A DNA stretch of 53,479 bases from Candidatus Hodarchaeota archaeon (lineage in GTDB: Archaea; Asgardarchaeota; Lokiarchaeia; Sigyniarchaeales; SOKP01): positions 1 to 53,479 of the forward strand of contig JBHLJY010000015.1 of assembly GCA_048887225.1 (NCBI GenBank), written 5' to 3'. Of the stretch, positions 5,006-14,385 are shown piece after piece (position 1 is the stretch's first letter; each line of letters starts with the position of its first letter). The translations under genes were made by a program, and so were the position numbers. The notes under the pieces are model-generated. The model was not told where the DNA came from. It was given only the letters and a program-made list of their open reading frames with translations, and made no database searches.

Positions 5006-5452
5006 ATGGTAGCAAAGAAAAAACTAATTAACTCAGGAATATATAATAAGGGTGAAATAACTTTTGATGATGTTATAGCATCAGTAAAAGGCACTTCAAA
5101 TATTACTGAAGCAGGGGCAATACTATCCTTTACTGGAATTGTAAGAAACACATCTGAAGATGGAAAACTAGTCAATGGCCTTAAAATTGATGCCTATGAT
5201 GAACTAGCAAATCAAACAATAGAAATAATTTGTTCTGATATTAAAAAGAAATATAGAATTATTGATATTAGAATTATTCATTTAAAGGGGGATTTTGATA
5301 TTAGTGATGATTTAGTTTATGTAGTAGTAGCAAGTGCTCATAGAAATGATGGATTCGAAGCCCTCAGAACTGCTGTTGAGAGATATAAGCATGAATTAAC
5401 TGTATGGAAAAAAGAAGATTTTTTAAATGGAAATTCAAAATGGGTTCATTAA
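5006..5452 (+). CDS. moaE: Molybdopterin synthase catalytic subunit
   Basis: GAILSFTGIVR, VASAHR, VWKKE, KWV motifs. Confidence 0.93.
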   Translation: MVAKKKLINSGIYNKGEITFDDVIASVKGTSNITEAGAILSFTGIVRNTSEDGKLVNGLKIDAYDELANQTIEIICSDIKKKYRIIDIRIIHLKGDFDISDDLVYVVVASAHRNDGFEALRTAVERYKHELTVWKKEDFLNGNSKWVH

Positions 5453-5455
5453 GTT

Positions 5456-7642
5456 CTATTGATATGGTTTTATGACATGAATCACATCATCATAATCGAT
5501 TCCCAACTCTTTTACTAGCTCAATTGTAGGACATCCAAATGCATTCCAACCACGCTGACGATATACTGCCTCTTGTAATTTTAAATATTGAATCTCTCTA
5601 TATTTTCGCAATATCTTCATTTTTTCTTCAGTGGTCTTTTCTTTGATATCTATTTCTAATTCTTCTAATTGCTCATCATATCTTTTTTTACGACTTTCAT
5701 ATTCCATTTTTGTTACAGGGCCCATTGCTCTATAAGGCAAGTTGGAATCATGTTCTCTCAAACCCTTACCTTGACGAATATTGAAGATTCTTTGCAAATT
5801 ATAAACGCGCTCAGACATGCGGATTAGATCGTCTGGCTCTGCTCTAATTCCTGTTACTGCCGTAAAATAGTCAGCATACCATTGAACATGCTGAGGAATC
5901 TTAGCTTGTAATAATTCCCCGGCCATTTTAATAGGAAGATCAAAATTGGAAGGAGGAGGGACGTCGTTCCAAGGGAGCTTACATAAACCACATAAACCGA
6001 ACCATGTACGCCAAAGTGGGAACCAATATAATGCTTTAGCTTTATCCTCGAATGTGGGAATGGAATGTCGCACAATATCTTCAAAAATCAACCATGCTTC
6101 ATCGTGTTGAGGACCTTTATTTGTAAGCCCATAACCTCCTTGCTGAGTTAAAGACTCCTTAGTTACATATTCTGAGAATTCTAATCCTTTATGCTCCATT
6201 CCAACGTCTTGCAAGAATTTAGGGTCGCCGCCATATTCTTTCGCAAATTTTTTCTTCATTCTTTTAATACCTTGACCAACAACAACTCCAAAACCCTCTC
6301 CTCTTGCCATTTGGTGGATTAAATTAATCGCAGCCTCGGCATTTCCGAAACTCAAATCAAGGTTCCCTGTAATTTCTTTGTTTATAATTCTCTCTTCATA
6401 ACATTCCATTATAAAAGCAATTCCCGTTCCTACTCCAATTGTATCTAAACCGTATGTATCACAATAAAAATTGACTTCAAGTACCCATTTAGGATCCCAC
6501 ACACCCCAATTTGAGCCACATCCAGCGATTGTCTCATATTCTGGACCATCTATTATCACTTTTTCTCCTTTGAAGGGGCCTGTCATTACTTTATAATCTT
6601 TAACCCAATGAGAACAACTAACTGCGCATCCATGCCAACAACCATCAGCACCTTTTCCAGTATGTTCACCAAATATTTCATACCAATCTTGTCGTTTATA
6701 AGGAATATCCTTGCCTTTAATTTCTCGATGCTGACCTAATCGAAAATTCTCAACAGGTAAAATATCAGCCATATTCATAAGATCTGGTAAATATCCAGTA
6801 CCAACTATTCTCATCTGATTCATTGTTGGGTCGTAAGTTATAATTTCTTTTTTATGCTTTCTTCCGATTTCAAATAATTTATCGGGATCTGAAGGATCGT
6901 TCTTCTTTACATTGTATGTTGGTGCCCGGCAAACCATGGCCTTAATCTTTTTATCTGCAAAAACAGTACCAATACCTCCTCGACCTGCCTGTTTGCATGA
7001 TGCCCATTTTCTTTTACGTTGATACCAAGAAGAATTTAACATACCCCATAGTGTATATTTTGCCGCAGGACCAGTGCTCACTACAGAAACAAGCTGTTTT
7101 TCCTTTTCTGTATGTTCTTTCGCATATTTTAAGGTTAGCTGTTGGGTTAGTAAGTGAGAATAATCTGAAAGACCATCAGAATCTTCTACGGTTTCAATTC
7201 GAACAGTATGATCCTGCCCATTTATGAAAATTACAACTTCCTTTTCAGCTTTTCCTTGAATTTCAAGAGTGTCAAAACCAGAGTATTTTAGATACGGTCC
7301 AAAATGACCTCCAACGTTGCTATCAATAATTATACCAGTTAAAGGCGAAATTGTCGTCACAATTGATTTTCCACCACCTGGATAATAAGTTGATGCTCCT
7401 AATGGACCGGTAGCCCAGCAAATTTCATTTTCAGGATCACTCCATTTCACAATTCTATCTTTTGGCAAACTATTCCACATAAGCCACAGATCAAAACCTC
7501 TTCCACCTATGAATTTTTCCTTCATTTCATCTGTAACGGGCTTTATAGAAATCTCATTTGTAGAAAGATTAATATATAGTGTTCTATTTGTATATCCTCT
7601 TTCCATATCTCTGTGATTGTACTTTTTCTCAGCTAATAACAT
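5456..7642 (-). CDS. aor: Tungsten-dependent aldehyde:ferredoxin oxidoreductase (AOR/WOR family)
   Basis: FIGGRG, SPLTG, DSNVGG, AGRGGIGTVFADKKIKA, CxxxCxxxC (GCWHGCAVSC), GPEYET, CDTYGLDTI, CGLC. Confidence 0.92.
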   Translation of the reverse strand: MLLAEKKYNHRDMERGYTNRTLYINLSTNEISIKPVTDEMKEKFIGGRGFDLWLMWNSLPKDRIVKWSDPENEICWATGPLGASTYYPGGGKSIVTTISPLTGIIIDSNVGGHFGPYLKYSGFDTLEIQGKAEKEVVIFINGQDHTVRIETVEDSDGLSDYSHLLTQQLTLKYAKEHTEKEKQLVSVVSTGPAAKYTLWGMLNSSWYQRKRKWASCKQAGRGGIGTVFADKKIKAMVCRAPTYNVKKNDPSDPDKLFEIGRKHKKEIITYDPTMNQMRIVGTGYLPDLMNMADILPVENFRLGQHREIKGKDIPYKRQDWYEIFGEHTGKGADGCWHGCAVSCSHWVKDYKVMTGPFKGEKVIIDGPEYETIAGCGSNWGVWDPKWVLEVNFYCDTYGLDTIGVGTGIAFIMECYEERIINKEITGNLDLSFGNAEAAINLIHQMARGEGFGVVVGQGIKRMKKKFAKEYGGDPKFLQDVGMEHKGLEFSEYVTKESLTQQGGYGLTNKGPQHDEAWLIFEDIVRHSIPTFEDKAKALYWFPLWRTWFGLCGLCKLPWNDVPPPSNFDLPIKMAGELLQAKIPQHVQWYADYFTAVTGIRAEPDDLIRMSERVYNLQRIFNIRQGKGLREHDSNLPYRAMGPVTKMEYESRKKRYDEQLEELEIDIKEKTTEEKMKILRKYREIQYLKLQEAVYRQRGWNAFGCPTIELVKELGIDYDDVIHVIKPYQ

Positions 7643-7820
7643 TAATTTTCACATATTTGAATAAAATTTCCTAGATACGTTAAATATTTCAAATCCTTCA
7701 ATTTAATTAAGTTTAAGGTTTACTAAGATATAATCTAAAAGTTTAATTAGATTTTATAAAAATAAGGTTTTTTTATCAATTTGAATATTTCAAATATAGA
7801 TTTCTAACAAAATTGAATAT

Positions 7821-9050
7821 TTGATGAAATTTTTAAAAACAATTAGGGTAGAAAAATTAAGAAACATATTAAACTCAATTCCAAACCTTAAACTTGAGGA
7901 AGAAATAGTATCTCTTGAAGAGAGTTTTAATAGAGTTATTTCAAGAGATATTAAAAGCACTATTGATGTTCCACATTTTCGAAAATCTCGAATGGATGGA
8001 TATGCGGTAATTGCTGAAGATACTTATGATGCTGAGGAAGATAATTTGATCTCTCTTGAATTAATTGAGACCATAAATGCCGGAAAAATTCCTAAGAAAA
8101 AATTGAAGAGGGGTCAGTGTTCTTATGTGGCTACTGGTGCTGCGATACCAGAAGGAGCTAATGGCGTTGTAATGGTTGAATTTTCAGAAAAAAAAGGTAA
8201 TAACATCTTAATTTCAAAAGCAATAACACCCGAAACTCATTTAATCAATATTGGATACGATATCAAAAAAGATCAGATTATATGTAAGAAACACACCCTT
8301 ATTGATTTACCAACTATAGGTCTCCTCTCTTCTTGTGGAATGGATCGAGTCCCAGTTTCTAAAAAACCAATAGTAAGTCTACTTAGCACCGGTAATGAGA
8401 TTGTTCCATTCGATGTAAAATCTTTAGATATTGGAAAAATATATGATGTTAATTCAATAGTTTTAAAGAAAGCTATTGAAAACGCAGGATCGAGTGTTAA
8501 TTTTTTAGGTATTGTAAAAGATGATTATCAAGAACTAAGGAAAAAAATCGATAATGCTTTATCAAATAGCAACATTGTAGTTTTATCAGGAGGAACCTCT
8601 AAAGGTGAAGGAGATTTAATTCCGCAAGTCTTAAATGAATATAAAAATATTGAAGTAATGGTACACGGAGTAAGAATTAAACCTGGAAAACCCCTAATTT
8701 TTGCTAAAATGGGTAAGAAAATTATTTTTGTTTTACCAGGATTCCCTACATCAGCTCTTAGTTGCTTTTATATATTTGTAGAGAATTTTTTAAGAAGAAT
8801 GTCAGGTTATCCATTGAAAGAAAAGAATTCAAAACTTTTAGAAGTTGGAGAAAGAATATATAGCACGGTTGGTAGGCATGAATTTAAATCAATTAGAATA
8901 CAAGAAGAAAATGGTGTGAAAAAAATCTATCCTGTTAAAACAGGATCAGAAGCAATTAGTACTATCTTTAAAGCAGATGGATATATCGAGATCGAAGAAT
9001 TAGAATCTATAGTCGAAAAAGGTGAGATAAGACAGGTTTTTTTCTTTTGA
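7821..9050 (+). CDS. moeA: Molybdopterin molybdenum/tungsten transferase MoeA (paralog 1)
   Basis: SRMDGYAV, TGAAIPEGA, STGNE, LSGGTSKG, IKPGKP, LPGFP. Confidence 0.93.
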   Translation: MMKFLKTIRVEKLRNILNSIPNLKLEEEIVSLEESFNRVISRDIKSTIDVPHFRKSRMDGYAVIAEDTYDAEEDNLISLELIETINAGKIPKKKLKRGQCSYVATGAAIPEGANGVVMVEFSEKKGNNILISKAITPETHLINIGYDIKKDQIICKKHTLIDLPTIGLLSSCGMDRVPVSKKPIVSLLSTGNEIVPFDVKSLDIGKIYDVNSIVLKKAIENAGSSVNFLGIVKDDYQELRKKIDNALSNSNIVVLSGGTSKGEGDLIPQVLNEYKNIEVMVHGVRIKPGKPLIFAKMGKKIIFVLPGFPTSALSCFYIFVENFLRRMSGYPLKEKNSKLLEVGERIYSTVGRHEFKSIRIQEENGVKKIYPVKTGSEAISTIFKADGYIEIEELESIVEKGEIRQVFFF

Positions 9051-9087
9051 GAAAAAAGTTTTTTAATCAATAATAGGTGAATAATAA

Positions 9088-9624
9088 ATGAAAGTTCACG
9101 AAGAACATAAAAAAAAAGCACCAGAACTCGTTAAAATTGCTTTAGTTATAGTAAGTACAAGTCGATTTGAAGAAATGCAAAAGGGTAAGACTAGTACTGA
9201 TAAAACAATTCCATTAGTTAAAGAAGTTCTAAAGGACAATCCAAATTTTTTATTATCAAAATCAGAAATCGTGGCCGATTCTTCAGAACAAATAAAAAAT
9301 GTTTTAAATAAATTATTAAGAGACCAATCAATTGACTCAATATTATTTAGTGGAGGTACAGGACTAACACCAAAGGACATCACCTATGAAACATTAGAAC
9401 CTTTATTAGAAAAGAAAATACTTGGATTTGGGGAATTTTTCAGGTATCTTTCTTTTAAGGAGATTGGAGCATCAGCTATGTTATCAAGGGCGTTAGCAGG
9501 TAAGTTAGGAGATAAAGCTATTTTTTTGCTCCCCGGCTCTCCTAACGCTGTAAGATTAGCTCTAAACAAACTAATTATTCCAGAATTAGGTCATATAATT
9601 TATATGATTAAAAAAGAAGAGTGA
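9088..9624 (+). CDS. moaB: Molybdopterin adenylyltransferase MoaB/MogA family
   Basis: GGTGLTPKDIT, GFGEFFR, AMLSRA, LPGSPNAV; GGTGA SD upstream. Confidence 0.9.
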   Translation: MKVHEEHKKKAPELVKIALVIVSTSRFEEMQKGKTSTDKTIPLVKEVLKDNPNFLLSKSEIVADSSEQIKNVLNKLLRDQSIDSILFSGGTGLTPKDITYETLEPLLEKKILGFGEFFRYLSFKEIGASAMLSRALAGKLGDKAIFLLPGSPNAVRLALNKLIIPELGHIIYMIKKEE

Positions 9625-10877
9625 TTAAGATGGAAAGATTAAGAAAAATTGGTTTCTCGAAATTAACAGCGTTAGAAGATGCTTTAAACAAGTTGAGTTC
9701 TCATATTAAATTGAGTTCAGTTGAGGAAATCGAAACGGTAGCATCACTTAACAGAATTTTGGCTGATGATATAACAAGTGAAATTGATATCCCACCGTTT
9801 GATAGATCCGCTATGGATGGCTATGCTGTTAAAGCTGAAGATATTTTTGAAGCATCACTGAAAAATCCAAAAAAAATTAAAAAAGTGGGAATTATTGAAA
9901 TTGGGGAAAGTCCAACACAAGTTCTCAAGAGAGGTGAAGCTATAAGAATATCCACAGGAGCTGCAATGCCAGATGGAGCTGATGCCGTTATAAAAATTGA
10001 AGATACTGAAATTGAAAACGATTTAATAACAATATATACATCTCTTGTTCCTGGAAAAAATGTTTCAAAAAAAGGGGAAGATATTCCATTAGGAACTCAA
10101 ATTTTGAATCAAGGTGTAGAAATAAAAGCAGAACATATAGCTCTTTTAAGTTCATTAGGTATTGAAAAAATAAACGTAAGAAAGAATCCAAAAATAAGCG
10201 TGTTTGCCACCGGCAACGAATTGTTAGAGGTTGGCACTCCTCTTGAGAAAAATAAAATCTTTAATTCAAATACTCCTATGATTTCAAATCTGGTTCAAAT
10301 CTATGGTGGTAAAGTTATTAAAGAATCTACCTTGAAAGATAACAGAAAAATATTAAAAACTGCTTTAATTGAGGCTGTTAAAGATTCAAATATAGTTATT
10401 TTTACGGGAGGTACTTCAGTAGGAACAAAGGATCATCTACCAGAAGTTATTCACGAAAATGGTACTGTTTTAACTCATGGGATAGCTATGAGACCAGGAT
10501 CGCCAATTCTAATTGGATATCTGAAAGATACTTTAGTATTTTGTTTGCCTGGAACTCCAGTAGCAGCTTACCTTTGTTTTTTAGTTATTGTTGGACCAAC
10601 CATTAGGAAAATGATGGGATGTTCTAAAATTGATCCGAGAATAGAAATTAATGCAATTATTAATAAAGATGTCCCAATTTCAAGCTTGGGATATATTAAT
10701 TATTTAAGAGTTAAAATTGAGAAAATAAAAAATCATTTTATTGCCATTCCAGTGAAATTAAAAGGTTCCGGAATAATTAGTTCATTAACTAAATCAGATG
10801 GGATTATTGAGATTCAAGCTTCCCAAGAAGGATTAAAAAATGGAGATCAAGTTACAGTAAAACTCCATCCAACATAA
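9621..10877 (+). CDS. moeA: Molybdopterin molybdenum/tungsten transferase MoeA (paralog 2)
   Basis: PPFDRSAMDGYAV, TGAAMPDGADAV, TGNEL, TGGTSVG, MRPGSP, LPGTP. Confidence 0.93.
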   Translation: MIKMERLRKIGFSKLTALEDALNKLSSHIKLSSVEEIETVASLNRILADDITSEIDIPPFDRSAMDGYAVKAEDIFEASLKNPKKIKKVGIIEIGESPTQVLKRGEAIRISTGAAMPDGADAVIKIEDTEIENDLITIYTSLVPGKNVSKKGEDIPLGTQILNQGVEIKAEHIALLSSLGIEKINVRKNPKISVFATGNELLEVGTPLEKNKIFNSNTPMISNLVQIYGGKVIKESTLKDNRKILKTALIEAVKDSNIVIFTGGTSVGTKDHLPEVIHENGTVLTHGIAMRPGSPILIGYLKDTLVFCLPGTPVAAYLCFLVIVGPTIRKMMGCSKIDPRIEINAIINKDVPISSLGYINYLRVKIEKIKNHFIAIPVKLKGSGIISSLTKSDGIIEIQASQEGLKNGDQVTVKLHPT

Positions 10878-10919: not shown

Positions 10920-11789
10920 ATGGTTGATACAACCAAAAAAGTAAAGGATATACAAAATAAATATAAAATCATTGGTAGAACTGAGGAATTAAAGAAAATA
11001 ATTTTGGCGCGTTCAGTAGGAAAGAATATTTTAATTGAAGGCGAAGTTGGAACTGGAAAAACTACTCTTGCTAAAGCGGTGTCAAGTTATTATGATGCAA
11101 ATTTTTATCGGATTGATTGTTCTGAGGAGACGTTAACTCACAATTTGATTGGTCATTGGGATCCTCCGTTAGTCATTTCAAAGGGATATGGAGAAGATTC
11201 TTATGTATATGGACCGCTTGCTTCAGCAATGTCCAATGGGGGATGCTTATTTATAAACGAAATAAATAGAATGCCTGAAAGTACTCAAAATGCTTTATTA
11301 ACCTCGTTAGACGAGAGATTTCTTGAAATTTCTAAATTGAAAACAATCCACGCTAAGGAAAACTTCTTCGTTGTAGCAACCTTAAATCCATCAGCTCATG
11401 TTGGTGTTACTGTATTAGGAGAAGCCATTAAAGATAGATTTATATGGATTAAGATTGACTATCAACAACCAGAAGAAGAAATAGAAATTATTAAGCAAGA
11501 AGTTAATCTTAATGGCGAATTAGACATCAAAATTGCTCGAATTTCTCAAGAAATAGTTCAAATAACAAGAAATAGCACATCTATTCGTAGAGGAAGCTCA
11601 ATCAGAGGCGCTATTGACTTAGCGGCTCTAATAACTCAATATGAAACAAATACTAGTACTAAAAATTGGGTTGAAGCTGCAATAATGTCTCTTTATAATA
11701 AAATTGAACTTGAAGACGGAGTGACTAAATCAAAAAAAGAAATTATTACTGAAATTGTTTTATCTGTATTAAATAAGTCGGATTTTTAA
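10920..11789 (+). CDS. MoxR-family AAA+ ATPase
   Basis: Walker A GEVGTGKT, GPL, Walker B variant LFINEINR, QNALL, ATLNP, AIKDRF, sensor II SIRG. Confidence 0.88.
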   Translation: MVDTTKKVKDIQNKYKIIGRTEELKKIILARSVGKNILIEGEVGTGKTTLAKAVSSYYDANFYRIDCSEETLTHNLIGHWDPPLVISKGYGEDSYVYGPLASAMSNGGCLFINEINRMPESTQNALLTSLDERFLEISKLKTIHAKENFFVVATLNPSAHVGVTVLGEAIKDRFIWIKIDYQQPEEEIEIIKQEVNLNGELDIKIARISQEIVQITRNSTSIRRGSSIRGAIDLAALITQYETNTSTKNWVEAAIMSLYNKIELEDGVTKSKKEIITEIVLSVLNKSDF

Positions 11790-11829
11790 TAATCGATGAT
11801 TTCTCTGCGGATGATTCCGAAGAGATTGA
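11780..11829 (+). other. Candidate -1 ribosomal frameshift cassette (slippery heptamer + stem-loop)
   Basis: G_GAT_TTT followed by TAA; hairpin TCTCT-G-CGGA[TGAT]TCCG-A-AGAGA at 11802-11825, extendable by TCGA/TTGA pairing (11793-96/11826-29). Confidence 0.55.
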
Positions 11830-12907
11830 GAATAAAAGGCTTAAGGTTAGACTTACTGAAAGACCTCCAGACAAAGAAATTTTACGATTAGAAATAATTA
11901 GAAAAAAGAAAAAAAAACCAGATTATTATCGACTCTTAGCGAACTCGTTGGATTACAAACAAATAAAAGAAATGACCTTTTTAGCAATCCAGTATAAAAA
12001 TCTGGAGGCAATTATGGGCATGCTTAAATCAAATGTTTATGCAGCGACAGATGCGCTAGATTGCGATGAAAGCGTGCAATTTTTTTCTGAAAAATCAAAA
12101 GAATCTGGTTTAGTTATGCCAGAAATATACTTTTTTATAAGAAGGCCGATATCGAAAAAATATAAAAAGATTTTTAGAAGGCTAGCTCGACAGAGTATAT
12201 TAAAAACTTCCTTAAAGATTACAAGCAGAGGTATTAAAGGTACTCGAAAGAAGACTATTCCATATTATGAAATAGGAATGCCTGAATTCGATTTAGACGA
12301 GTCAATTCAACATAATCCGCTAAAAATTTATGAAAAAAATCTTTCTTATAAAGATATCTATGGAATCAAGAGGCAACGACAAAAAAGAAATATTGTTTTA
12401 ATATTAGATACAAGTGGCAGTATGTACGGGCGTACTCTATTAAACGCAGCTCTTACAACATCAGTTCTTGCCTATAATATGGAAAAGGAAAACTATAGTA
12501 TTGTATTATTCAATTCTACTGCTATGATACTGAAAAAAATAAACGATATTCAAAAATCCATTATTACCATAATAGACGACATATTAGACTCTGAAGCAGT
12601 AGGATTTACAAATATTCATATCGGTTTAGAAAAGGGTTTAAAAGAACTAAATAAAGTCAAAGAACATCACAAAAATAAATTTGGCATTCTAATAACAGAT
12701 GGTAATTATAATCGTGGAGAAAACCCAATTAAAATAGCAAAAAAATATCCTAAATTACATGTAATAGGAATGCCCGCAGAGAACGATGCTGATAGAGGTA
12801 TTGATACATGTCGAGAAATTGCTAAAGCTGGACAGGGAAAATTTTATGCTGTAACCGATTATAAAGAAATTCCACGAGCACTAATCAATTTATTGTCTCA
12901 AGCTTGA
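11786..12907 (+). CDS. von Willebrand factor A domain protein (CoxE/ChlD C-terminal-like); frame is open from 11777, well upstream of the tracked TTG at 11948
   Basis: MIDAS DTSGS...T(N)...ITDG; 57 additional open codons upstream of the TTG that overlap the MoxR stop in the -1 frame; start mechanism uncertain. Confidence 0.85.
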   Translation, partial: LIIDDFSADDSEEIENKRLKVRLTERPPDKEILRLEIIRKKKKKPDYYRLLANSLDYKQIKEMTFLAIQYKNLEAIMGMLKSNVYAATDALDCDESVQFFSEKSKESGLVMPEIYFFIRRPISKKYKKIFRRLARQSILKTSLKITSRGIKGTRKKTIPYYEIGMPEFDLDESIQHNPLKIYEKNLSYKDIYGIKRQRQKRNIVLILDTSGSMYGRTLLNAALTTSVLAYNMEKENYSIVLFNSTAMILKKINDIQKSIITIIDDILDSEAVGFTNIHIGLEKGLKELNKVKEHHKNKFGILITDGNYNRGENPIKIAKKYPKLHVIGMPAENDADRGIDTCREIAKAGQGKFYAVTDYKEIPRALINLLSQA

Positions 12908-13056: not shown

Positions 13057-14385
13057 GTGGTAAGACCACCGACAGAAAAAAATATTTGCTTGTTATGTAA
13101 AGGTGCACGGCTCTTATGTGGGAAAAAAACCTGTCCAATTCTATTAAAAAAATCTATCTTAAAATCTATTGTTCCTTTTGAATTGGGAAAATCTAAGCGA
13201 AACATTGAAATTTTTGGGGCAAGTCCACCAGGGTTTTTTGTAGGGAGGTTTAATTATCCAAATGTAGCAGTTGGACCGCTTGTTCCATTTAAAGAATTGG
13301 AATCAAACCTTAATATTGAAGATCATCACATTCTTGATGCTCCAGAACTTTGGTATGGTAAACAAATGGCTGAGGTTATTTTATATAGGAGTAGTTTAGT
13401 TCGAAGTAATTTCAAAATAAATGTGAGAATTGGTGAACAAAAATTAAAATATACTCCTCCAATAAGGGCTCAAAAATTATTAGAAACTTCACAAGAACTC
13501 TCAATGGCCGCTCGTCCTGTTGACACAGAAACTAAATTGGAAAAACTAAATTTTCGAATGATTATGGATAATCACGCTTTACCTGTTGGTCCAAGTGGTA
13601 TTACAAATAAAATAAGAATTACTGAAAATGTCAAAGTCCATCCAAAGGTAGAATATTGTGTATCTGATACTGATTTAAAGGCTCAAGATGCTATATCTGA
13701 GCATCTTTATCTTAAAGGTCGTGTTCCTTTATCATCAATCCAAAGAGTTTTTTCAGCAGGATTGTTAGGAGAGCAAAATAGTCGCAAATTGGTTCCTACA
13801 AGATGGTCGATAACAGCCATTGATGATATGATTTCAAAAAGATTAATTACAGAAATAAAAAAATTTCCTGAGATAAATGATTATCAAATTTTTGAAGCTA
13901 TTTACCTTGATAACCATTTCAAAATTCTCTTATTTCCTGGAAAATTCACCTACGAGATGAATGAAGTCTGGGCACCAAATTCTTTATGGAATATATCTCT
14001 TTCTGGAAATAATTGCAATTTACAGCCACAGATAATGACAGATTACGAATTTTATAGAGGTCGCAAATCTTATGCGAGTAATATAACAGGTGCTTATTAT
14101 GCCGCCAGGAAAGCTGTTTGTGAGTATCTATATAAAAAAAGGAGACAAGCTCGAATTTTGATCTTTCGTGAGGTATCCTCTGGCTATATTGTTCCCTTGG
14201 GAGTTTGGGTAATTAGAGAAACTGTAAAAAACGCCATGGATACAAATCCAGTGAGATTAGATAATTTCAACTCTGCTTTAAGTAAAATGGCTAAAGGATT
14301 AATTGTTGATCAAAAACACTGGGAAAAAAATAGCAAATTGATTGATTTTGTAAAAACTCAAAAAACAATTGATAATTTTTTTTGA
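13057..14385 (+). CDS. nreA: Archaeal DNA repair protein NreA
   Basis: N-terminal CLLCKG..LCG...CP, SPP.FFVGRFNYP, RKLVPTRWSITA.DD, GAYYAAR, PLGVWVIRE and C-terminal PIP box QKTIDNFF. Confidence 0.92.
   Translation: MVRPPTEKNICLLCKGARLLCGKKTCPILLKKSILKSIVPFELGKSKRNIEIFGASPPGFFVGRFNYPNVAVGPLVPFKELESNLNIEDHHILDAPELWYGKQMAEVILYRSSLVRSNFKINVRIGEQKLKYTPPIRAQKLLETSQELSMAARPVDTETKLEKLNFRMIMDNHALPVGPSGITNKIRITENVKVHPKVEYCVSDTDLKAQDAISEHLYLKGRVPLSSIQRVFSAGLLGEQNSRKLVPTRWSITAIDDMISKRLITEIKKFPEINDYQIFEAIYLDNHFKILLFPGKFTYEMNEVWAPNSLWNISLSGNNCNLQPQIMTDYEFYRGRKSYASNITGAYYAARKAVCEYLYKKRRQARILIFREVSSGYIVPLGVWVIRETVKNAMDTNPVRLDNFNSALSKMAKGLIVDQKHWEKNSKLIDFVKTQKTIDNFF

What the first reader, a model, noticed from the sequence alone, without database searches (positions are those of the whole stretch)
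10920..12907. Candidate -1 programmed ribosomal frameshift fusing a MoxR AAA+ ATPase to a vWA protein
Seen: the ATPase ends ...TCG GAT TTT TAA (11778-11789). The vWA frame is -1 relative to it and is open from 11777, with no ATG/GTG/TTG for 57 codons; these encode a linker-like LIIDDFSADDSEEIENKRLKVRLTERPPDKEILRLEIIRKKKKKPDYYRLLANS. The junction is the heptamer G_GAU_UUU directly before the stop. A hairpin follows (TCTCT-G-CGGA[TGAT]TCCG-A-AGAGA, 11802-11825, with a weaker lower stem starting 6 nt after the heptamer). Established: G_GAU_UUU is a functional -1 slippery site in dianthoviruses/umbraviruses, and frameshifted chlD genes yield both an AAA-only and an AAA-linker-vWA subunit from one locus. 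Inference: this locus makes a 289-aa ATPase and a ~662-aa AAA-vWA fusion at a set ratio, i.e. recoding in an Asgard MoxR system. Alternative: reinitiation at the ATA overlapping the stop (TAATA, 11787-11791), or a sequencing/pseudogenising indel in the T5 run.
Basis: partly seen in the sequence, partly recalled or inferred. Interest (0 to 1): 0.85.

Follow-up and report, generated by a model that had tools for sequence, protein, structure and literature searches.

The report
Asgard -1 frameshift with kink-turn signal
In this Lokiarchaeon and across most Asgard archaea, one gene very probably makes both a short AAA+ ATPase and a long ATPase-vWA fusion because some ribosomes slip back one base, and the RNA just behind the slip site has the kink-turn shape that the ribosomal protein L7Ae binds, a shape I found no report of as a frameshift signal.

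Summary
Observation confirmed; the frameshift reading is strongly supported by comparison, not by experiment. The vWA frame lies -1 to the ATPase in 95 orthologous loci from 19 Asgard families, including the closed genome of cultured Ca. L. ossiferum, so it is no assembly error. A U_UUY slip site sits 0-1 codon before the ATPase stop, and no start codon is conserved. Codons upstream of the first TTG are under purifying selection (pN/pS 0.20) and align with natural in-frame fusions. It occurs in both polarities, covaries in one, suppresses synonymous change, and shares its core with the l7ae leader of the same archaea. All loci with an imperfect heptamer carry it; all loci without it have a perfect heptamer. 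L7Ae binding, efficiency and the protein's substrate are untested. The logic matches frameshifted chlD, but this is a MoxR/NorQ-type family. This scan noted the frameshift before on other genomes, and a kink-turn in one Heimdall family.

The parts
10920..11789 (+). 0-frame ORF: 289-aa MoxR/NorQ-type AAA+ ATPase (short product and N-terminal half of the fusion)
   Evidence: Pfam AAA_5 E 7e-23, AAA_3 E 3e-18; best single-domain PDB matches 2r44 and NorQ
11040..11063 (+). Walker A motif
   Evidence: G, G, K, T conserved in 94-96% of the family alignment
11250..11261 (+). Walker B-like motif with N in place of the usual D (hhNE)
   Evidence: N and E each 96% conserved
11780..11786 (+). slippery heptamer G_GAU_UUU
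   Evidence: U_UUY in 94 of 95 -1 loci; positions 1 and 2 equal in 74 of 95; D and F codons synonymously invariant in family f1
11787..11789 (+). 0-frame stop directly after the slip site
   Evidence: stop 0 or 1 codon after the slip codon in 90 of 95 loci
11790..11834 (+). kink-turn hairpin: C-helix 11790-11794 with 11830-11834 (one A-A mismatch), GAU bulge 11795-11797, tandem G-A pairs 11798-11799 with 11828-11829, U-U pairs 11800-11801 with 11826-11827, capping stem-loop 11802-11825
   Evidence: pS 0.31 against about 0.8 elsewhere
11786..11947 (+). start-less -1 frame segment: acidic linker and first helices of the vWA-side domain
   Evidence: pN/pS 0.20 for codons +17 to +57; aligns with natural fusions P0001/P0002; helices 29-39 and 45-52 predicted at pLDDT about 90
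11786..12907 (+). -1 frame ORF: C-terminal 373 aa of the fusion (helical domain, beta extension, vWA)
12389..12874 (+). vWA domain; MIDAS DxSxS at 12407-12421
   Evidence: Pfam VWA E 1e-13; D, S, S and distal D invariant, T 97%

Best explanation
The two ORFs are one recoded gene. Most ribosomes stop at 11787-11789 and release the 289-aa ATPase. A fraction slips back one base on the U-run, helped by the adjacent stop and by the structure that begins 4-7 nt downstream, and reads on to make a 662-aa ATPase-linker-vWA protein (junction ...SDF/LIIDD...). Shown by comparison: the offset, the slip motif, translation-level selection upstream of any start codon, natural fusions, and a conserved structure with kink-turn signature. 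Inferred: that ribosomes shift (0.88); that the element folds as a kink-turn (0.8); that L7Ae binds it and sets or tunes the efficiency (0.45); that short and long subunits co-assemble into a hexameric ring carrying about one vWA adaptor, as in NorQ6-NorD1 (0.6). The substrate is unknown; the likeliest role is ATP-driven remodelling of a target protein gripped through the MIDAS site.
For: -1 offset in 45 of 45 order/class-level loci and 50 more phylum-level loci. First NTG start lies anywhere from -1 to +605 nt relative to the stop. Heptamer positions 1 and 2 change together and never oppositely on the tree: 7 independent pairs for A, median p 0.03. pN/pS 0.20 upstream of the first start; pS falls to 0.31 over the kink-turn codons. 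In-frame fusions of 604-730 aa in Asgard and Bathyarchaeia. Lineages with +1 offset, and in-frame f25 genes, keep TTT TTT CG, where a +1 shift gives the other product, so three arrangements could each give both proteins. Kink-turn in 78 of 95 loci against 6.5% of control positions; bulge Asp codon GAT 60 of 60 (43 expected), Glu codon GAG 58 of 62 (17 expected); 8 of 9 pairs with compensatory changes, 0 of 500 shuffles as high for covariation score. Same core in 23 of 24 l7ae leaders. L7Ae is encoded in the genome.
Against: One sub-lineage has G_GAU_UCU, with the U-run broken but offset and kink-turn kept and a GTG 20 nt after the stop (12 of the 120 closest ATPases end this way). A_GAU_UUU (16 loci) is a poor tandem-slip site. 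In family f1 the kink-turn is nearly invariant, so covariation there is modest (4 pairs; 51 of 500 shuffles as high). Synonymous shuffles that keep the D/E-rich peptide still pass the kink-turn test in 52%. The kink-turn is missing in 17 loci. The tool warns that relatedness inflates shuffle tests.
Confidence: 0.86

Rival explanations
1. Same -1 frameshift, but at a fixed ratio: the kink-turn acts only as a self-folding roadblock and L7Ae binding is constitutive or irrelevant.
For: -1b:-1n is C:G in 64 of 78 elements, which favours folding in metal ions alone (PMC6298567). Lineages with perfect heptamers use plain hairpins or none.
Against: A plain stem would do as a roadblock, yet the non-canonical GA pairs and the U at the third bulge position are kept in both polarities. 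Every kink-turn tested so far folds on L7Ae (PMC6298567).
Confidence: 0.45
2. Two separate genes: the vWA protein is made by translational coupling from a non-canonical start near the stop, and the kink-turn lets L7Ae repress that initiation, as in l7ae leaders.
For: L7Ae represses through kink-turns in leaders and coding sequences (PMC5539422). MoxR and vWA partners are usually separate genes. The G_GAU_UCU lineage has a GTG in the hairpin. GAGG-rich 5' arms resemble Shine-Dalgarno sites.
Against: No candidate start is shared across families. Coupling does not require a constant -1 offset, a U_UUY run or co-varying heptamer positions. The ATG inside the bulge is in the 0 frame and opens ORFs of 5-56 codons. 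In-frame fusions exist.
Confidence: 0.07
3. The frame change happens at transcription (RNA polymerase slippage adding one U), not on the ribosome.
For: The site is a T-run; the +1 and in-frame lineages have T6-T8; one Bathyarchaeia locus has A9.
Against: The run is only T4-T5 in most loci, below the Tn with n>8 cited for slippage (PMC3711429). Heptamer covariation is codon-phased and the stop distance is constrained.
Confidence: 0.05
4. Sequencing or assembly indel, or a pseudogene.
For: Homopolymer at the junction; raw reads not checked.
Against: Same offset in 95 loci, among them the closed short+long-read genome of Ca. L. ossiferum (G055, 6,035,313 bp). Independent 96-97% identical ATPases also end at the same residue. 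Both halves are under purifying selection.
Confidence: 0.01

Closest known systems
Frameshifted chlD (fs-chlD) of Mg/Co chelatases (PMC3711429; PMC9227772)
   Same: One gene gives an AAA-only and an AAA-linker-vWA subunit; -1 and +1 forms and in-frame fusions coexist; includes archaeal members (Methanocaldococcus, Methanococcus).
   Different: This ATPase is not ChlI/ChlD (22-29 bits against cut-offs of 500-779); no ChlH/CobN found in the genome; the slip site is a short U_UUY with an adjacent stop, not a poly-A run; the 3' element is a kink-turn.
MoxR AAA+/vWA chaperone pairs (NorQ/NorD, CbbQ/CbbO; PMC9976466)
   Same: AAA_5-type ATPase plus MIDAS-bearing vWA; the longest structural alignment of the vWA half is to NorD (227 residues, Z 17.9).
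   Different: Those are separate genes; here both subunits would come from one recoded gene and the vWA is tethered to an ATPase subunit. Walker B is NE. Substrate unknown.
L7Ae autoregulatory kink-turns in archaeal l7ae leaders (PMC5539422; PMC6298567)
   Same: GAU bulge, tandem G-A pairs, hairpin capped on either helix; same core as the l7ae leaders of these Lokiarchaeia.
   Different: Lies inside a coding sequence behind a slip site, where binding would stimulate or tune frameshifting, not block initiation.
G_GAU_UUU -1 sites of umbra- and dianthoviruses; trans-activated shifts of cardio- and arteriviruses (PMC5009743)
   Same: Same heptamer; in pea enation mosaic virus a stop 3 nt downstream is needed; protein-assisted -1 shifting has precedent.
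   Different: Cellular archaeal gene; the candidate trans factor is a host ribosomal protein; no long-range pairing was sought or seen.
Saccharolobus fucA1 -1 frameshift (PMC1616953; reviewed in PMC8211752)
   Same: Archaeal -1 programmed frameshift.
   Different: As of the 2021 review the only demonstrated cellular archaeal case, confined to two strains; the present signal is phylum-wide.

Membership tests
Programmed -1 ribosomal frameshift | Downstream ORF conserved in the -1 frame without its own start | tested here: met
   95 loci, 19 families; first NTG position variable
Programmed -1 ribosomal frameshift | X_XXY_YYZ-type slip site in the overlap | tested here: met
   U_UUY in 94 of 95; perfect XXXYYY in 46, imperfect in 49; the UCU lineage is an exception
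Programmed -1 ribosomal frameshift | Conserved 3' structure 5-9 nt downstream | tested here: met
   synonymous suppression
Programmed -1 ribosomal frameshift | Trans-frame protein or junction peptide detected | not testable with these tools
   no proteome or reads
Standard kink-turn | 3-nt bulge followed by tandem G-A and A-G pairs between two helices | tested here: met
   78 of 95 loci; bulge GAU in 69; 6.5% of control positions
Standard kink-turn | Flanking helices supported by covariation; -1b:-1n mostly C:G | tested here: met
   8 of 9 pairs compensatory in the C-helix-capped polarity; modest in f1; C:G in 64 of 78
Standard kink-turn | Kinked 3D fold and L7Ae binding | not testable with these tools
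   L7Ae gene present; binding not measured
MoxR AAA+/vWA systems | AAA_5/AAA_3 ATPase with Walker A, sensor I, arginine finger, sensor II | tested here: met
MoxR AAA+/vWA systems | Canonical Walker B (DE) | tested here: not met
   NE in 96% of the family; this lowers confidence in normal ATPase activity, not in the fold
MoxR AAA+/vWA systems | vWA partner with intact MIDAS | tested here: met
MoxR AAA+/vWA systems | Hexamer binding one vWA domain | not tested
   inferred from NorQD (PMC9976466)
ChlD/ChlI chelatase subunits (fs-chlD) | Score above BchD-ChlD or cobaltochelatase model cut-off | tested here: not met
   22-48 bits against 500 and 779
ChlD/ChlI chelatase subunits (fs-chlD) | Large subunit ChlH/CobN in the genome | tested here: inconclusive
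   not found in G000, 98% complete; some fs-chlD genomes also lack it
Midasin/Rea1 | Specific relationship to midasin AAA and MIDAS domains | tested here: inconclusive
   top whole-sequence hit is a sum over six domains; best domain 40.8 bits is below 2r44 (61.8) and NorQ (53.3); MIDAS Z 15 is below NorD Z 18; no phylogeny was run

The most novel reading that the evidence does not exclude
Asgard archaea have a phylum-wide -1 frameshift that is switched or tuned by the host ribosomal protein L7Ae binding a kink-turn behind the slip site, so free L7Ae sets the ratio of ATPase to ATPase-vWA subunits. I found no report of a kink-turn/L7Ae frameshift stimulator or of a host-protein-activated cellular -1 frameshift in archaea.
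Probability: 0.42. Interest if true: 0.92.

Novelty: new variant of a known kind. Interest (0 to 1): 0.8.

Why it matters
A 2021 review lists one demonstrated cellular -1 frameshift in archaea (PMC8211752). This signal is conserved across most Asgard families sampled, so these loci are probably mis-annotated as two genes with a truncated vWA protein. It is present in cultured Ca. L. ossiferum, which makes archaeal frameshifting directly testable with defined junction peptides. It offers a genetic way to set the many-to-one ATPase:vWA stoichiometry seen in MoxR machines. If L7Ae is the trans factor, it adds a new class of frameshift stimulator, ties a protein-remodelling ATPase to the pool of a ribosome/sRNP protein, and supplies a natural protein-controlled frameshift switch built from a pair already used in synthetic biology.

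Tried and rejected
Proto-midasin idea: prompted, not supported per domain; only the ring-plus-one-vWA architecture is analogous. Tungsten/molybdenum enzyme maturation role (neighbours moeA, moaB, moaE, AOR): among 21 long loci the Moco genes flank the pair only in the window, two other f1 loci and one f19 locus; other lineages have cdc6/phoU, hypF, MTHFR or ABC genes, so context does not fix the function. AOR genes do recur nearby in two f2 loci and in L160/L162, so a link is not excluded. Upstream Shine-Dalgarno-like stimulator: 21 of 95 loci, not conserved (no control run). Rfam: only chance-level matches. 0-frame ORF from the ATG in the bulge: 5-56 codons, not conserved. A second genomic match to the kink-turn pattern on contig C2 lies inside an unbroken ORF and was taken as chance. 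Three ATPase paralogs in G000 show no such junction. Literature searches for MoxR + frameshift, Asgard + frameshift and kink-turn/L7Ae + frameshift gave nothing on this system; the library lacks most subscription papers, including Antonov 2020. Metagenome scan with the alignment failed. No complex prediction was run, since halves of a split gene tend to pass by likeness.

Full report
Observation. The window holds a 289-aa ORF at 10920-11789 and, one base back in frame, an ORF open from 11777 to 12907 whose first ATG/GTG/TTG is the TTG at 11948, 57 codons in. Pfam gives AAA_5/AAA_3 for the first and VWA for the second. The hairpin alone is not significantly stable (z about -1.7). The host is a Lokiarchaeon: close relatives of the ATPase are named Promethearchaeota, and one same-order genome has exactly the contig length published for Ca. 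Lokiarchaeum ossiferum (6,035,313 bp).

The offset is conserved. Orthologs were found in 154 of 251 Asgard genomes searched. All 45 order- and class-level loci with both halves have the vWA frame at -1, and so do 50 more from across the phylum: 95 loci, 19 families. Six loci (f23, f25, f32) are +1 and four f25 loci are in frame. The first possible NTG start in the vWA frame wanders from -1 to +605 nt, and the codon overlapping the stop is ATA, GTA, CTA, TTA or GTG, so no start is shared. Independent near-identical ATPases end at the same residue. This rules out an assembly indel and a general ATA reinitiation.

The start-less segment is protein-coding. In family f1, pN/pS is 0.20 for codons +17 to +57, all upstream of the TTG, like the ATPase core (0.21) and the vWA end (0.16). 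Residues in this stretch are 80-95% conserved phylum-wide, and natural in-frame fusions (P0001, P0002) align through it. AlphaFold places two of its helices at pLDDT about 90. In-frame fusions also occur in Bathyarchaeia.

The slip site. U_UUY precedes the stop in 94 of 95 loci; the exception is A_AAC_CCU, itself a perfect heptamer. Types include G_GAU_UUU (40), A_AAU_UUY (23), A_GAU_UUU (16), G_GGU_UUU, C_CGU_UUU and C_CAU_UUU; positions 1 and 2 are equal in 74 of 95. On a tree these two positions change together and never oppositely (7 independent pairs for A, median p 0.03; too few pairs for G and C), as tandem slippage predicts. The stop follows within one codon in 90 of 95 loci. G_GAU_UUU and a required nearby stop have viral precedent (PMC5009743). 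The +1 loci and the in-frame f25 genes keep TTT TTT CG, resembling the UUU_CG +1 motif; in the in-frame genes the +1 frame stops after 2-10 codons. One Bathyarchaeia locus is -1 with an A9 run. My inference is that what is conserved is the ability to make both a short and a long product. A counter-example remains: a sub-lineage reads G_GAU_UCU UAG. A U-G wobble could allow UCU to UUC slippage, but a GTG in the hairpin could also serve as a start there.

The 3' element is kink-turn-shaped. Reading the junctions showed a recurring GA ... CC-GAU-GA pattern (note). An anchored test (first GA 8, 11 or 14 nt after the heptamer; R-A-N bulge; paired flanks) is met by 78 of 95 loci, against 6.5% of 49,634 control codon positions and 52% of synonymous shuffles that keep the D/E-rich peptide. 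The bulge is GAU in 69, and -1b:-1n is C:G in 64, matching natural kink-turns (PMC6298567). Most families cap the C-helix with the loop; f1 (this window) and f5 cap the other helix, and both polarities are known from l7ae leaders. In a 20-sequence alignment of the first polarity 8 of 9 pairs show compensatory change, and no shuffle or slid register reaches the covariation score. In f1 the core is nearly invariant, so covariation is modest, but synonymous divergence falls to 0.31 from about 0.8. The bulge Asp codon is GAT in 60 of 60 (43 expected) and the Glu codon at the G-A pair is GAG in 58 of 62 (17 expected). As an internal control, 23 of 24 Lokiarchaeal l7ae leaders carry the same core, in f1 often letter for letter. 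All 49 loci with an imperfect heptamer have the kink-turn and all 17 without it have a perfect heptamer. These are about five lineages, so this is suggestive, not a statistical proof. It does fit a stimulator that rescues a weak slip site.

The proteins. The ATPase keeps Walker A, sensor I, arginine finger and sensor II, but Walker B is NE in 96% of the family. It scores far below ChlD cut-offs, and no ChlH/CobN was found in the genome. The vWA half has an intact MIDAS, and its longest structural alignment is to NorD in NorQD complexes, then to midasin MIDAS. NorQ hexamers bind one NorD (PMC9976466), so a minority frameshift would supply about one tethered vWA per ring; this is inference. The midasin hit in PDB searches is a sum over six domains and not a specific link. 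Gene neighbourhood is not conserved, so the substrate is open.

Comparison and novelty. The two-products-from-one-gene logic is that of fs-chlD (PMC3711429, PMC9227772), but family, slip site and 3' element differ. A 2021 review counts one demonstrated cellular archaeal -1 frameshift (PMC8211752). Searches found no paper on this system or on kink-turns as frameshift stimulators, within a library that lacks most subscription journals. Earlier notes of this scan report the same frameshift in other Asgard genomes and a kink-turn at an ATPase-partner junction in one Heimdall family; these are unchecked AI notes, and my kink-turn note predates seeing them.

Verdict. Programmed -1 frameshift: about 0.86-0.88. 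Kink-turn fold: about 0.8. L7Ae-responsive shifting: about 0.42-0.45. New variant of a known kind; interest 0.8. Nothing here is shown experimentally.

Noticed in passing
G000:C2 minus strand, about 70 nt upstream of the L7Ae start (L133); also L135-L157: Lokiarchaeal l7ae leaders carry a conserved kink-turn 6-21 nt before the ATG (23 of 24), with family-specific covariation of the C-helix and probably a second kink-turn stacked on it; fits known L7Ae autoregulation.
   Followed up: partly
L160:2850-2890, L162:2850-2890: Sub-lineage with G_GAU_UCU UAG: U-run broken, -1 offset and kink-turn intact, GTG inside the hairpin, AOR gene divergently upstream.
   Followed up: partly
L059, L060, L086-L092, L098: Families f23, f25 and f32 have +1 offsets or in-frame fusions, all with TTT TTT CG at the ATPase end: a candidate +1 (or -2) shift site.
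   Followed up: partly
L164, L167-L169, L171 (Bathyarchaeia): One -1 locus with an A9 run, three in-frame fusions that keep a T-run at the linker, and one +1 locus: the family may be recoded outside Asgard too.
   Followed up: partly
window 11250-11261: Walker B reads NE instead of DE in 96% of the family, including fusions.
   Followed up: no
G000:C11:70163-73600: Paralogous ATPase (34% identical) followed in the same frame, after two stops, by an 829-codon vWA-type ORF; ~835-aa relatives are widespread in the order.
   Followed up: no
window 5006-10877: moaE, a 728-aa aldehyde:ferredoxin oxidoreductase on the opposite strand, moeA-moaB-moeA directly upstream; this context is shared by only some relatives.
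   Followed up: partly
window 13057-14385: Archaeal Nre DNA-repair gene downstream, adjacent or near in several f1 loci.
   Followed up: no
L025 (G031) and G199: The vWA frame has one internal TGA in these two f1/g4 genomes: a premature stop or a read-through codon.
   Followed up: no
family f12 (59 genomes), f8, f18, f22: No ortholog found with this query in these Asgard families among those searched.
   Followed up: no
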